From: a virus
Lineage: Duplodnaviria > Heunggongvirae > Uroviricota > Caudoviricetes
DNA: 10,544 nt
Strand: one strand, 5' to 3'
Virus record (IMG/VR): IMGVR_UViG_3300029841_000319
Coordinates: 1 to 10,544 of that record
Each line of letters begins with the position of its first letter. Position 1 is the first letter of the stretch. The position numbers were made by a program. This document shows positions 6,001 to 9,000 of this stretch, piece by piece.

Positions 6001-9000
6001 CATAACTTGTTACCTCGGTCTGTTACTGTTGAGGTAATAATTATGCTTATTTGGTTTGGTGTCAATAGATATGAGTTAAAAAAATTACCCGTAAGGTAAT
6101 CTATCTGGCAATAAAAAAGCCGCCAGAAGGCGGCTTACTTACTGAAAAGTATGATTTTATTGTTTGTTTTTTTCGTTCTGGTTGATGACAAATTCAATGT
6201 AACTTTCGATCTTTGCTTTCTCGGTTTCGGGTAACAATGCGTAGCGCGAGCGGTCATAGTTGATGGTCGCAGGGTCGTGCGGGTGAATCAGTAATTCATA
6301 GCCGTGACGCCCGAATGCGGATGCAACATTCTCCAGGGTGGAAATGGAAACGCTGACCTCATTGTTTAACAGGCGACTGATTGTCACCTGGGCGACGCCG
6401 GATGCGCGGTGAAGTTTTCCCTGCGTTGAAAGGTCGCGGCTTTCGCTCATCCAGCGTTCCAGGTTGTGAGCCGCCAGCTGACCAATGTCGCTTGGGCCGA
6501 CAGGCTGAAAACCTTCCTGAGAAAGCGAGCGATCGATATCAAGCCAGTTACGGGGTTTATTGGCGGCAGCTTCAATTTTTCGTGCAACCTGGTCGCCGAT
6601 AACCTTCTTGCCAAGAGCCCAGCGGTTTACCAGATTTGCCTGAGTTCCAAGTTTTTCTGCCATCCGCGTCTGAACACCATTGAATTCACGGTCGATCAAG
6701 TCGTTGAGATTTTGCCTGCGGACGTCCTGGATACTTTTCATTTTCTGGAAAATCGCCTCATATATGAATCAGTAGATGATTCAATTTAAAGCAATATTAC
6801 CCAACAGGTAAATGCACCTCATAGGTAACTATCCTTGATTTTTGTTACCTTATGGGTGAATATTTATTATCTGAAATAAATATCAGGCAATAGCTATGAG
6901 CGATAACGGACATTTCGATTTCAAAAAGCACTGGCTTGCACTTACTCCGGATGAGCGTGAAGCCTTCGCACAGGAAGCCGGAACGACGAGTCACTATATC
7001 CAGACTCACTTAACAGGTAAGCGCAAAATGCCAGGTAAGGTATTGATGAATGGGCTTTTTAAAGCCTGTAAAACAAGACAATGGCTGCGCTCAAAAGCAG
7101 AACTGGCATACTTCTTCTACTCATGATATCCAGCTACAACCCTCTGTAGACCGCCACCCGGCGGTCTTTTCATATCTATTCGTACCTCAAAGGTAATAAA
7201 AAACCAAATCTGGTTGATCTTTTTTTTGTGTCAGCACAAAATGACCGTAATCCCAATACTAATAACAGGGCTTACCATGGAAATCATTACACGTATTGAT
7301 GCCGCAAAGCGCGGACTTAAACGCTACTACACCGGAAAACCATGTAAGCATGGACATGACAGTGAACGCTGGGTTTACAACGGACACTGTGTTGAGTGCA
7401 CCATGGAATCAAACCGTCGCATCAGGGCAGAGATTAAGCAGATCATGATTAATTCCTCCCCACAACACTCAAGCTGATAGCGGAGATTAATCATGAGCAG
7501 ACATGCAACAGATTGGGCCTGGGAGACAGATCCAGGTAGCTCATCATTAAAGCTCATACTGCTCTCGATGGCTGACAGAGCCGATGAATATAACCTCTGC
7601 TACCCCAGCATAGAACGCCTCGTTAAAGACACTTGCCTGAATAAAAAAACCGTGCAGGCCGGGCTTATATCGCTCATGAAAATGGGGCTTATTTCAGATA
7701 CCGGAGAGAGAAAGGGAGTGACAAAAAGAGTGCGGGTTTTCTCTCTTAATATAACCAAAAACGGGAACATTAAAGGCAACCTAGAAGGGTGTAATGAACC
7801 CGAAAACGGTAATGTTCCCGAAAACGGGAATATACCCAAAAACGGGATGTTGAATGATCCCAAAAACGGGATGTTGAATGATCCCAAAAACGGGATCCAG
7901 AACCAGTCATATAACCAGTCATTTAACCAAGAGAGGGAGAGCAGGACAAAAACCGGGGATTCTGTGCCTCATGACCCCGGCGCAAACAACGCCGTGATGA
8001 ATAACTTTGTTCCTCCTGGTGGGCCAGGGCAATTAGGCAAATTTGTCATGCATGAACAATGGCAGCCATCAGATGACTTTCTTCGGAAAAGCTCATTGCA
8101 GGGAATCTACCTGGACAGTCTGCCAACGGCACAGGAACTTGCAGAGTTCAGAATTTACTGGATGGCTGAGGGTAAGGCATACCATCAGGCACAGTGGGAG
8201 CAGAAGCTGGCAAGGCGCATCCAGTTCTGTAGACAGAAATCAGGTGAAGTCAGAAAGAGCCTTGACTGGCATAACACTGACTGGATAGATGAGGTGTGGG
8301 ATGAAATCAACTCCAGAACTTCTTAATGAGTACGATCGCTTTCGTGGTGGGCATGACCACTCGACGGCGGTTGCTTCTGCTGACGATGAAAGGGCAAAGA
8401 AGGAGCAGGTTGCAAGAATTTTCAACGAAATGTTTGTCCAGTTACAGGCTGCATTTCCAGGCAGCATCGCTGCTATCAGCGAGCAAGGAAAGCTAAACGA
8501 ATTTCGAAAACAATGGATGCTTGCGTTTCTGGAGAATGGGATCACAACAATGGAACAGGTTAACGCTGGTATGCGCCACGCCCGCGCCAGTGAATCTCCG
8601 TTCTGGCCGTCGCCAGGGCAATTTATCAAGTGGTGTAAAGACAGCAAGATGGTTCTTGGCGTCACCATTGACGATGTGATGGCGGAGTTTCACCGGTACA
8701 GCAAGGAAAAAAGTTTATATCCTGGTGGTCCCGAAAGATTCCCGTGGCGACATCCGGTTATGTACTGGGTCGTATGTGATACCCGCCGTGCAATGTATCA
8801 GCGCCAGCTTAGCGAGATTGAGGTTGAGAAACACGCGCGCAGGCTGCTCGATGATTGGGCGAAAAAGGTGGCTTCCGGACAGCAGATACCCGATCCGGTG
8901 ATCAGCATACAGGCAAAGCCAGAACCCATGAGTACACCTCCGGACACAGGGAGAGACGTTTACCATCCACCAGGGCGAAGTTTCGGGTGCATGCCTAACG

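What the first reader, a model, noticed from the sequence alone, without database searches (positions are those of the whole stretch)
7754..7922. Iteron-type origin embedded in the O-like gene, with a perfect 24-bp tandem duplication
There are six copies of CCC[A/G]AAAACGG[G/T]A with 18- and 24-bp phasing. Each is internally dyad-symmetric (TCCC-AAAAAC-GGGA), echoing lambda ori iterons. The array encodes the repetitive NG-rich peptide linker of the initiator (PENGNVPENGNIPKNGMLNDPKNGMLNDPKNG). The exact 24-bp duplicate (7835-7858 and 7859-7882) suggests recent slippage or expansion, and copy number may vary between isolates.
Basis: partly seen in the sequence, partly recalled or inferred. Interest (0 to 1): 0.45.

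Follow-up and report, generated by a model that had tools for sequence, protein, structure and literature searches.

The report
Phage replication origin inside initiator gene
The repeats are very probably the initiator-binding sites of this prophage's replication origin, sitting inside the initiator gene as in phages lambda and phi80; this is an ordinary kind of element, here paired with an initiator protein built from different domains.

Summary
Six same-strand copies of (A/C)CC(A/G)AAAACGG(G/T) lie at 7754-7894, against 0.26 expected by chance, and include a perfect 24-bp tandem repeat.

They sit in a 277-aa gene (7493-8326) of a phiV10/epsilon15-like E. coli prophage. The protein has an N-terminal winged helix (Pfam HTH_36), a predicted disordered linker and a DnaT-like C-terminal domain. 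A lambda-P-type helicase loader gene follows.

The repeats are a DNA element, not a peptide repeat:
- In 72 loci from other species, the 10-nt core occurs 127 times just after the winged-helix coding region. It occurs 0 times on that strand in the other 205 kb.
- The core is read in all three frames.
- Its synonymous positions are fixed (Pro = CCC in 74 of 74).

The 16-mer TTCCCGAAAACGGGAA is identical to a gp15-binding site annotated in phi80's origin, which is read in another frame.

The motif follows the N-domain, not the C-domain.

A second conserved element, about three 12-13-bp units, follows the array and may be where the DNA is unwound.

Origin activity itself is inferred, not shown. 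I rate it a new variant of a known kind, of moderate interest.

The parts
7493..8326 (+). Replication initiator gene (277 aa). Domains: winged helix (HTH_36), disordered linker, DnaT-like ssDNA-binding C-domain, short C-terminal tail.
   Evidence: ORF. Pfam HTH_36 at aa 18-67 (E 2e-10) and DnaT C-domain at aa 184-250 (E 1e-14). PHROG 1032 'replication initiation protein', E 3e-102. Solved DnaT C-domain structures match aa 181-255.
7493..7750 (+). Coding region of the N-terminal winged-helix domain (aa 1-86), the presumed iteron-binding domain.
   Evidence: AlphaFold2 pLDDT is 86-97 for residues 1-89, with helices at 3-11, 17-28, 40-47 and 51-64 and wing strands at 67-74 and 80-85. Foldseek gives only generic winged-helix matches. 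HTH_36 is present in 67 of 67 homologues that carry the array.
7754..7765 (+). Iteron 1 (degenerate): ACCAAAAACGGG
   Evidence: This copy is lost in phage PAS61.
7799..7810 (+). Iteron 2: CCCGAAAACGGT
7817..7828 (+). Iteron 3: CCCGAAAACGGG. With its flanks (7815-7830, TTCCCGAAAACGGGAA) it is identical to an annotated phi80 gp15-binding site.
7835..7846 (+). Iteron 4: CCCAAAAACGGG, the start of the 24-bp tandem array.
7859..7870 (+). Iteron 5: (T)CCCAAAAACGGG(A)
7883..7894 (+). Iteron 6: (T)CCCAAAAACGGG(A), the copy nearest the downstream element.
7835..7896 (+). Perfect 24-bp tandem repeat (2.6 copies). This is the unit whose number varies most between isolates.
   Evidence: TRF score 124 at 100% match. 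Copy-number variants.
7900..7933 (+). Second conserved DNA element: three 12-bp-spaced units, GAACCAGTCA (7900-7909), TAACCAGTCA (7912-7921) and a degenerate TAACCAAGAG (7924-7933). Candidate unwinding or loading element.
   Evidence: TRF 12-bp repeat. The pattern [GT]AA[CT]CNNNCA occurs 99 times in the 60 bp after the last iteron in 64 loci (25.8 per kb). Elsewhere on that strand it occurs at 0.28 per kb. Spacing is 12 or 13 bp, and the units are read in different frames.
7929..7958 (+). Purine- and A-rich top-strand tract: AAGAGAGGGAGAGCAGGACAAAAACCGGGG.
   Evidence: AT skew is 0.54-0.56 at 7900-7989. Sequence. Lambda and phi80 have A-rich tracts at the same relative position.
8033..8257 (+). 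Coding region of the DnaT-like ssDNA-binding domain (aa 181-255).
8258..8323 (+). C-terminal tail carrying LDWHNTDWI. It resembles the tails of lambda O and phi80 gp15 and may contact the P-like loader.
   Evidence: BLASTP local matches: LDxxNTDWI to lambda O and LDxxNTDW to phi80 gp15. The tail is exchanged together with the 5' end of the P gene.
8289..9083 (+). Lambda-P-family helicase loader gene.
   Evidence: Pfam PF06992, E 4e-53. PHROG 109 'P-like helicase loader', E 1e-87.

Best explanation
Window 7754-7894 is the initiator-binding (iteron) part of the replication origin of a phiV10/epsilon15-like temperate phage. It lies inside the initiator's own gene, as in lambda and phi80.

Proposed mechanism:
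1. The N-terminal winged helix (aa 1-86) binds each 14-bp dyad TCCC-N6-GGGA. Binding is probably as a dimer, because the half-sites are about 10 bp apart, one helical turn. Protein bound along the array forms an O-some-like complex.
2. This complex destabilises the adjacent 12-bp repeats and purine-rich tract (7900-7958).
3. The DnaT-like C-domain engages the exposed single strand.
4. The C-terminal tail recruits the P-like loader, which carries the host DnaB helicase.

The element can sit in coding sequence because it encodes a disordered linker that tolerates almost any peptide. This also explains why whole 18- or 24-bp units are gained and lost by slippage without harm.

Shown here: the repeats, their conservation as DNA, their linkage to the N-domain, their identity with phi80 sites, and the copy-number variation. 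Inferred: binding, unwinding and helicase loading.
For: 1. **Not chance.** 6 hits against 0.26 expected.
2. **DNA-level conservation.** The core CC[AG]AAAACGG was derived from the window alone. In 72 loci from other species (N-domain 33-86% identical) it occurs 127 times on the coding strand within ORF nt 200-650. In the other 204.6 kb it occurs 0 times on that strand and 3 times on the opposite strand. It is read in three frames (93, 26 and 8 occurrences).
3. **Fixed synonymous sites.** In 74 P[KE]NG peptides, Pro is CCC in 74 of 74 (16% elsewhere in the same ORFs), Lys is AAA in 58 of 58 (66%), and Asn is AAC in 71 of 74 (54%).
4. **Identity with phi80.** Annotated gp15-binding sites include TTCCCGAAAACGGGAA, read there as FPKTG but here as VPENG. 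Lambda's iterons are TCCCTCAAAACGAGGGA-like.
5. **Same layout as lambda and phi80.** In all three the array starts 2-3 codons after the wing of the N-domain.
6. **The motif follows the N-domain.** HTH_36 is present in 67 of 67 homologues, but the DnaT C-domain in only 8 of 67. Phage GF-2 joins this N-domain and array to a lambda-O-like C-terminus. Phage ZX5 has the same DnaT C-domain with a different N-domain and has no such motif.
7. **Co-variation.** Homologues with a deleted or divergent wing lack the motif or carry a variant core.
8. **Disordered linker.** Residues 91-190, encoded by the array and the downstream elements, have pLDDT below 50.
9. **P-like loader gene next door**.
10. **Conserved downstream 12-13-bp element**.
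Against: - No experiment shows binding or origin firing for this phage group, and the literature I could search does not describe this origin.
- The flank is only mildly AT-rich: GC is 0.40 at 7870-7929, and the family mean AT is 0.63 against about 0.56. The unwinding site is therefore uncertain.
- The initiator is not a Pfam lambda-O member. Its similarity to O is weak: hhalign E 0.002-0.004 at low probability, plus shared PHROG profiles.
- The 72 loci are related by descent, and copies within a locus arise by duplication. The counts are therefore not independent events.
- The phi80 sites are a GenBank annotation. I could not read the underlying paper.
Confidence: 0.8

Rival explanations
1. 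The repeats are real binding sites for the initiator's N-domain, but they are not the firing origin. They would serve autoregulation, copy control by titration or handcuffing, or exclusion of related phages, while initiation occurs elsewhere.
For: - No strongly AT-rich unwinding region lies next to the array.
- Copy number is freely variable, with 4-9 strict-motif DNA copies and 11 peptide repeats in one protein. That is easier to tolerate for a titration site.
- A perfect DnaA box flanked by two IHF-consensus matches lies 1.7 kb downstream at 9573-9630.
Against: [quoted passage not shown]
- A second conserved, strand-specific DNA element always follows the last iteron. A pure titration site does not predict that.
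- Lambdoid origins also vary in iteron number, with 4 in lambda and 6 in Stx phages (PMC7466680).
- One DnaA box is what chance predicts.
Confidence: 0.1
2. The repeats are only a by-product of a slippage-prone, repetitive disordered protein linker. Selection, if any, acts on the NG-rich peptide and the DNA has no function of its own.
For: - In this window all six copies are in one frame and encode xP(K/E)NGx.
- The segment is predicted to be disordered.
- Unit number varies, as in a microsatellite.
Against: - The same DNA core is read in all three frames across homologues and in phi80.
- Synonymous positions are fixed far beyond codon usage.
- The strict core occurs 127 times on the coding strand against once on the opposite strand within the array zone. 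A peptide linker explains neither the motif's identity with phi80 binding sites nor its absence from ZX5, which has a comparable linker.
Confidence: 0.03
3. The sites are bound by a different protein, such as a host factor or another phage regulator, and not by the initiator's own N-domain.
For: No binding data exist. The wing and recognition-helix co-variation is confounded by phylogeny.
Against: - The motif always travels with this N-domain across at least three kinds of C-terminus, and is absent when the N-domain is replaced.
- It occurs nowhere else in the window, including the immunity region.
- In lambda, the equivalent sites are bound by the O initiator itself (PMC7466680).
Confidence: 0.05

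Closest known systems
Phage phi80 origin (gene 15 / gene 14 module)
   Same: - The iteron word is the same: TTCCCGAAAACGGGAA is identical over 16 nt, and both are TCCC-N6-GGGA dyads.
- Both arrays are direct repeats about 18-24 bp apart, inside the initiator gene, starting just after the N-terminal DNA-binding domain.
- An A-rich tract follows the array.
- A P-family loader gene comes next.
- The initiator tail carries the LDxxNTDW motif.
   Different: - phi80 gp15 has a Phage_rep_O N-domain (PF04492) and a lambda-O-type C-terminal part. BLASTP finds no similarity to the window's N-domain.
- phi80 has four sites about 21 bp apart, read in another frame.
- phi80 lacks the GAACCAGTCA 12-bp repeats.
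Phage lambda ori (four iterons in gene O, with the P loader)
   Same: - The origin is in the middle of the initiator gene, in a linker-coding stretch.
- The iterons are dyad-symmetric, contain an A-tract, and are read in several frames.
- An A-rich, strand-asymmetric region lies to the right of the array.
- A P-type loader recruits DnaB.
- Iteron number differs between relatives: 4 in lambda and 6 in Stx phages (PMC7466680).
   Different: - Lambda's iteron is longer (TCCCTC-N5-GAGGGA, 17-18 bp), with half-sites about 11-12 bp apart instead of 10.
- The O protein belongs to PF04492.
- Lambda has a clearly AT-rich 40-bp region. Here that region is only mildly AT-rich and instead carries a conserved 12-bp repeat.
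Iteron-plasmid origins (RepE/F, pi/R6K, TrfA/RK2, RepA/pPS10)
   Same: - Direct repeats are bound by a winged-helix initiator.
- An adjacent repeated 13-mer-type unwinding element can be bound as single-stranded DNA by the initiator (PMC10602881 abstract). The three 12-13-bp units here may be analogous.
   Different: - There is no Rep_3-type two-winged-helix initiator.
- No DnaA boxes lie near the array.
- The origin is inside the coding sequence.
- The helicase arrives through a phage P-type loader.
E. coli DnaT (primosomal protein I), the name most databases give this gene
   Same: The C-terminal ssDNA-binding domain is homologous: aa 181-255 match solved DnaT C-domain structures at E 3e-19.
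   Different: The N-terminal part of DnaT is absent. The NCBIfam DnaT equivalog scores 78.9 against a cutoff of 201. The protein is a phage origin-binding initiator, not a restart primosome subunit.

Membership tests
Lambdoid (lambda/phi80-type) origin embedded in the initiator gene | Four or more same-strand direct repeats of about 14-19 bp with internal dyad symmetry, inside the initiator gene between its N- and C-domain coding regions. | tested here: met
   Six copies at 7754-7894, at codons 88-134 of a 277-codon gene. They lie between the winged helix (aa 1-86) and the DnaT-like domain (aa 181-255).
Lambdoid (lambda/phi80-type) origin embedded in the initiator gene | The repeat sequence matches known initiator-binding sites of the group. 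| tested here: met
   A 16-nt stretch is identical to an annotated phi80 gp15 site. The TCCC...GGGA arms and the AAAAC core are shared with lambda iterons.
Lambdoid (lambda/phi80-type) origin embedded in the initiator gene | An AT-rich unwinding region lies immediately to the right of the iterons. | tested here: inconclusive
   GC is 0.40 at 7870-7929 with strong A skew, but there is no marked AT peak. The family mean AT is 0.63 against about 0.56. A conserved 12-13-bp repeat occupies this position instead.
Lambdoid (lambda/phi80-type) origin embedded in the initiator gene | A P-type helicase loader gene lies directly downstream of the initiator gene. | tested here: met
   PF06992, E 4e-53, at 8289-9083.
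Lambdoid (lambda/phi80-type) origin embedded in the initiator gene | The fragment supports initiator- and P-dependent replication, and the initiator footprints on the repeats. | not testable with these tools
   This needs cloning, gel-shift or footprinting, or marker-frequency experiments.
Lambda O protein family (Pfam PF04492, Phage_rep_O) | The N-terminal domain matches PF04492 above its threshold. | tested here: not met
   Pfam finds HTH_36 (PF13730) and no PF04492 hit, whereas lambda O and phi80 gp15 both hit PF04492. Remote links only: shared PHROG 678, 345 and 391 'O-like' profiles and hhalign E 0.002-0.004 at 9-14% probability.
Lambda O protein family (Pfam PF04492, Phage_rep_O) | A lambda-O-type C-terminal, P-interacting domain. 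| tested here: not met
   The C-domain is DnaT-like. Only the last approximately 10 residues (LDWHNTDWI) resemble the O tail.
E. coli DnaT (primosomal protein I) | A full-length match to the DnaT equivalog model. | tested here: not met
   NF002770 scores 78.9 bits against a cutoff of 201, and only aa 181-255 align.
Iteron-plasmid replicons (Rep_3 / RepA-RepE-pi type) | A Rep initiator with tandem winged-helix domains, and DnaA boxes beside the iterons. | tested here: not met
   There is no Rep_3 hit. The only DnaA box in the window is at 9586-9594. Foldseek gives only generic winged-helix matches at E above 0.01.

The most novel reading that the evidence does not exclude
The array may be one instance of a widespread, undescribed origin cassette of gammaproteobacterial temperate phages. 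The cassette would have three parts: an HTH_36-type winged helix, a conserved TCCC-N6-GGGA iteron word, and a conserved sequence-specific triple 12-13-bp element. It would move as a unit between at least four different helicase-recruitment C-termini: DnaT-like, lambda-O-like, Phg_2220_C and unassigned types.

The same iteron word also serves phi80, whose N-domain belongs to a different Pfam family. Initiators of unrelated prophages could therefore cross-bind each other's origins, producing replication interference or cross-activation. The 12-13-bp units could be a sequence-specific single-strand binding or loading site, like the 13-mers of iteron plasmids, instead of a generic AT-rich region.
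Probability: 0.3. Interest if true: 0.6.

Novelty: new variant of a known kind. Interest (0 to 1): 0.4.

Why it matters
This gene is in 424 of 5,426 complete E. coli genomes. It is annotated there as 'DnaT-like ssDNA-binding domain-containing protein', and in other records as 'primosomal protein' or 'helix-turn-helix domain-containing protein'. None of the annotated records I inspected marks an origin.

Recognising it as the origin-binding initiator with its embedded origin has several uses:
- It corrects the annotation.
- It gives a simple sequence signature for locating origins in a large group of phages: 540 clusters at 50% identity match the N-domain at E <= 1e-10.
- It explains the length polymorphism of the protein.
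- It shows how modular these origins are, with the DNA-binding domain and its site kept together while the helicase-recruiting half is swapped.
- The shared iteron word with phi80 raises a testable question of cross-talk between co-resident prophages.

Tried and rejected
- **Locus search with the 8-sequence N-domain alignment** failed because no stretch was conserved enough. A 4-sequence alignment worked.
- **Literature.** Searches on phiV10 or epsilon15 with iterons, on DnaT-type phage initiators, and on the literal motif found no description of this origin. I could not retrieve the phi80 genome paper.
- **Direct similarity to lambda O and phi80 gp15.** BLASTP found nothing apart from the C-terminal tail. 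hhalign was only weakly suggestive.
- **Fold search against the PDB.** It returned only generic winged-helix proteins at E above 0.01, so it gives no specific initiator assignment.
- **A classical AT-rich unwinding region.** I found only a mild AT rise.
- **DnaA boxes and IHF sites near the array.** There are none; the only ones are 1.7 kb away.
- **'Terminator-like' hits on the minus strand at 7843-7886.** These are by-products of the dyad ends of adjacent iterons, not terminators.
- **Second protein search with the N-domain profile.** It returned mostly short, truncated proteins. They were useful only as an alignment for structure prediction.
- **Peptide-repeat explanation.** Rejected on the reading-frame and codon evidence.
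Full report
**1. What is there**

The window is a phiV10/epsilon15-like (Uetakevirus) prophage or phage segment. It holds an integrase at 1-1251, a two-HTH repressor at 6157-6741 on the minus strand, and a rightward early operon. The finding lies in ORF 7493-8326, which encodes 277 aa.

Six same-strand copies of (A/C)CC(A/G)AAAACGG(G/T) start at 7754, 7799, 7817, 7835, 7859 and 7883. They are spaced 45, 18, 18, 24 and 24 bp apart. The pattern, allowing one mismatch, hits only these six places in the 10.5 kb on both strands. Shuffles expect 0.26, and 0 of 200 reach six. 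Tandem Repeats Finder reports a perfect 24-bp repeat at 7835-7896 (2.6 copies) and a separate 12-bp repeat at 7901-7929.

The first copy is degenerate and set apart from the others. Only three copies carry the full TCCC-N6-GGGA dyad.

**2. The gene**

Pfam finds an N-terminal HTH_36 winged helix (aa 18-67) and a C-terminal DnaT ssDNA-binding domain (aa 184-250). The next gene, 8289-9083, is a lambda-P-family loader at E 4e-53. PHROGs names the first gene 'replication initiation protein' and the second 'P-like helicase loader'.

The protein is not DnaT. The NCBIfam equivalog scores 78.9 against a cutoff of 201, and only the C-domain aligns. It is not a Pfam lambda-O member either.

AlphaFold2, run with a 100-sequence alignment, gives a confident winged helix for residues 1-89 (pLDDT 86-97). 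Residues 91-190 have pLDDT below 50, and the C-domain has moderate confidence. The disordered stretch is the part encoded by the iterons, the 12-bp repeats and the purine-rich tract. Foldseek against the PDB returns only generic winged-helix proteins.

**3. DNA element or peptide repeat?**

I collected 72 loci encoding relatives of the N-domain that are 33-86% identical to it. Most are one per species; a few species and genomes contribute more than one. They come from Vibrio, Pseudoalteromonas, Acinetobacter, Proteus, Providencia, Marinomonas, Edwardsiella, Enterobacter, Burkholderia and others.

I scanned them with the 10-nt core CC[AG]AAAACGG, taken from the window alone.
- It occurs 127 times on the coding strand within nt 200-650 of these ORFs, a total of 30.8 kb.
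- In the remaining 204.6 kb it occurs 0 times on that strand and 3 times on the opposite strand.
- It occurs once on the opposite strand inside the zone.
- The 127 copies are read in all three frames: 93, 26 and 8. For example, CCC AAA AAC GGG reads as PKNG, while ACC CAA AAA CGG GAx reads as TQKR(D/E) in the same genes.

Synonymous sites are also fixed. In 74 P[KE]NG peptides the codons, compared with the rest of the same ORFs, are:

| Residue | Codon in the array | Share elsewhere in the ORFs |
|---|---|---|
| Pro | CCC, 74 of 74 | 16% |
| Lys | AAA, 58 of 58 | 66% |
| Glu | GAA, 16 of 16 | 59% |
| Asn | AAC, 71 of 74 | 54% |

 The copies are not phylogenetically independent. Even so, frame independence combined with fixed synonymous sites across genera rules out a purely peptide-level repeat.

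**4. What the motif travels with**

All 67 full-length homologues carry HTH_36. Only 8 have the DnaT C-domain, 6 have Phg_2220_C, and the rest have no Pfam C-domain.
- Edwardsiella phage GF-2 joins this N-domain and array to a C-terminus that closely resembles that of lambda O, and a P gene follows.
- Acinetobacter phage AP22 pairs the module with a DnaB-like helicase gene.
- Phage ZX5 has the same DnaT C-domain and P gene but a different N-domain. It has no copy of the motif and no direct repeats in the gene.
- Homologues whose wing (DTGE[RK][KR]G) is deleted or divergent lack the strict motif or use variant cores such as AAAAGT. An Acinetobacter group with a distinct recognition helix uses AACAAC or AACAAT cores. 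This is suggestive but confounded by phylogeny.

The N-domain and the array therefore behave as one module, as expected for a protein and its binding site.

**5. Comparison with known origins**

Lambda's annotated iterons are ATCCCTCAAAACGAGGGA-like. The phi80 record annotates four gp15-binding sites inside gene 15. These are ACCGGAAACGGGAAG, TTCCCGAAAACGGGAA, TTCCCGAAATCAGGAA and TTCCCGAAAACGGTA.

The second site is identical over 16 nt to window 7815-7830. In phi80 it is read as FPKTG; here it is read as VPENG.

In lambda, phi80 and this phage the array begins 2-3 codons after the end of the N-terminal domain. Yet phi80 gp15 is a PF04492 protein with no BLASTP similarity to the window's N-domain.

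The only links between the two N-domains are weak:
- They share PHROG 'O-like' profiles.
- hhalign aligns the recognition-helix region at E 0.002-0.004.
- The C-terminal tail motif LDxxNTDW is common to all three initiators.

[quoted passage not shown] It reports 4 iterons in lambda and 6 in Stx phages. It also reports that O binds AT-rich single-stranded DNA (PMC7466680, read).

**6. Copy-number variation**

- *Close relatives.* I examined 83 close relatives, most of them IMG/VR contigs with 98-99% identical N-domains. The modal pattern is the window's own, six copies spaced 45, 18, 18, 24 and 24 bp, in 59 of them. The rest have 4-9 strict copies, with spacings that are always 18, 24 or sums of these.
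- *Single phage records.* The BP9 record lacks one 24-bp unit. phiV10 has a third 12-bp unit.
- *E. coli proteins.* Lengths among the E. coli relatives examined range from 263 to 311 aa, and one protein has 11 NG repeats.
- *Complete E. coli genomes.* The gene is present in 424 of 5,426. In an evenly spaced sample of matches, about 20% differ in length by -24, -18, +18, +24 or +48 bp.

**7. A second conserved element**

Directly after the last iteron come three 12-bp-spaced units: GAACCAGTCA (7900-7909), TAACCAGTCA (7912-7921) and a degenerate TAACCAAGAG (7924-7933). A purine-rich tract follows, running to about 7958.

I searched the 64 loci with a detectable array using the pattern [GT]AA[CT]CNNNCA.
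- It occurs 99 times in the 60 bp after the last iteron, or 25.8 per kb.
- Elsewhere on that strand it occurs at 0.28 per kb.
- It never occurs on the opposite strand in that zone.
- 55 of the 64 loci have at least one copy.
- Spacing is 12 bp (25 times) or 13 bp (13 times), so successive units fall in different frames.

AT content rises only slightly here, to 0.63 from about 0.56. My reading is that this is the unwinding or loading element of the origin. It may be sequence-specific, like the 13-mers of plasmid origins. This is inference only.

**8. Mechanism proposed**

1. N-domain dimers bind the 14-bp dyads, whose half-sites are 10 bp apart.
2. The protein-coated, A-tract-containing array stresses the adjacent 12-mer and purine tract.
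3. The DnaT-like domain holds the exposed single strand.
4. The C-terminal tail docks the P-like loader carrying DnaB.
5. Early rightward transcription runs through the origin, as in lambda.

Steps 1-5 are inferred from homology and layout. What is shown here is conservation, linkage, identity with phi80 sites, and polymorphism.

**9. Rivals**

- *Binding sites that regulate but do not fire (0.1).* The weak AT-richness and a distant DnaA box with flanking IHF matches favour this reading. The lambda and phi80 precedent and the conserved downstream element argue against it.
- *Pure peptide repeat (0.03).* Rejected on the evidence in section 3.
- *Sites for another protein (0.05).* Disfavoured on the evidence in section 4.

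**10. Verdict**

This is a lambda/phi80-type iteron origin embedded in the initiator gene. It is served by an initiator with a different domain make-up, HTH_36 plus a DnaT-like C-domain. None of the annotated records I inspected marks an origin, and the literature I could search does not describe it.

I rate it a new variant of a known kind, with interest 0.4. The more novel possibilities are a pan-gammaproteobacterial origin cassette, cross-recognition with phi80-type initiators, and a sequence-specific unwinding element. None is excluded, and none is proven.

Noticed in passing
window 8218-8552: This is a mosaic patch. The window matches phiV10 at 97.5% up to 8217 and again from 8553, but 8218-8552 is not of the phiV10 type. 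The ZX5/TL-2011b-type match runs from 8257 to 9776 at 94%. The last approximately 35 aa of the initiator and the first approximately 88 aa of the P-like loader are therefore exchanged together. This suggests that they form a co-adapted interaction pair.
   Followed up: partly
window 8258-8323: The initiator's C-terminal tail, LDWHNTDWI, resembles the extreme C-termini of lambda O (LDLTNTDWI) and phi80 gp15 (LDFNNTDW), although the rest of the proteins are unrelated. It may be a short docking motif for P-type loaders. phiV10-type alleles end instead in HWNSPEAWEDFL.
   Followed up: partly
window 7900-7933 and L007-L079: A conserved strand-specific element lies directly after the last iteron. 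It has about three units of [GT]AA[CT]CNNNCA spaced 12-13 bp apart, and it is enriched 92-fold in 64 loci. Its function is unknown; it may be an unwinding or loading element.
   Followed up: yes
window 9573-9630: The intergenic region between the DUF1064 gene and the next gene holds a perfect DnaA box (TTATCCACA, 9586-9594, minus strand). It is flanked by two IHF-consensus matches at 9573-9585 and 9618-9630. The window has 3 IHF matches against 0.49 expected. A single DnaA box is what chance predicts.
   Followed up: no
window 7856-7897: Three GATC (Dam) sites lie at 7856, 7880 and 7894. One sits in each 24-bp unit (AATGATCCC) and one at the end of the last iteron (GGGATCC). This is the densest 60-bp cluster of GATC in the window.
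   Followed up: no
L002 (PP488543.1, phage BP9) and H2 (PP350014.1, phage PH444): A 138-kb record classified as Vequintavirus carries this Uetakevirus-type immunity and replication module near one end. An unannotated 115-kb record matches the same replication gene. They may be chimeric assemblies or co-assembled prophage DNA.
   Followed up: no
P0121-P0240: Many database proteins of this family are truncated just after the N-domain, at 57-170 aa, often on very short contigs. This is consistent with assemblies or gene calls breaking inside the repeat array.
   Followed up: no
L011 2301-2552 (Moraxella phage Mcat8): A divergent member of the N-domain family has no CCC-N6-GGG motif. At the same position it carries a different array: three 84-bp tandem units built from AAAGGGGGTACAATTTTGCA-type repeats. 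This looks like a switch of iteron specificity.
   Followed up: no
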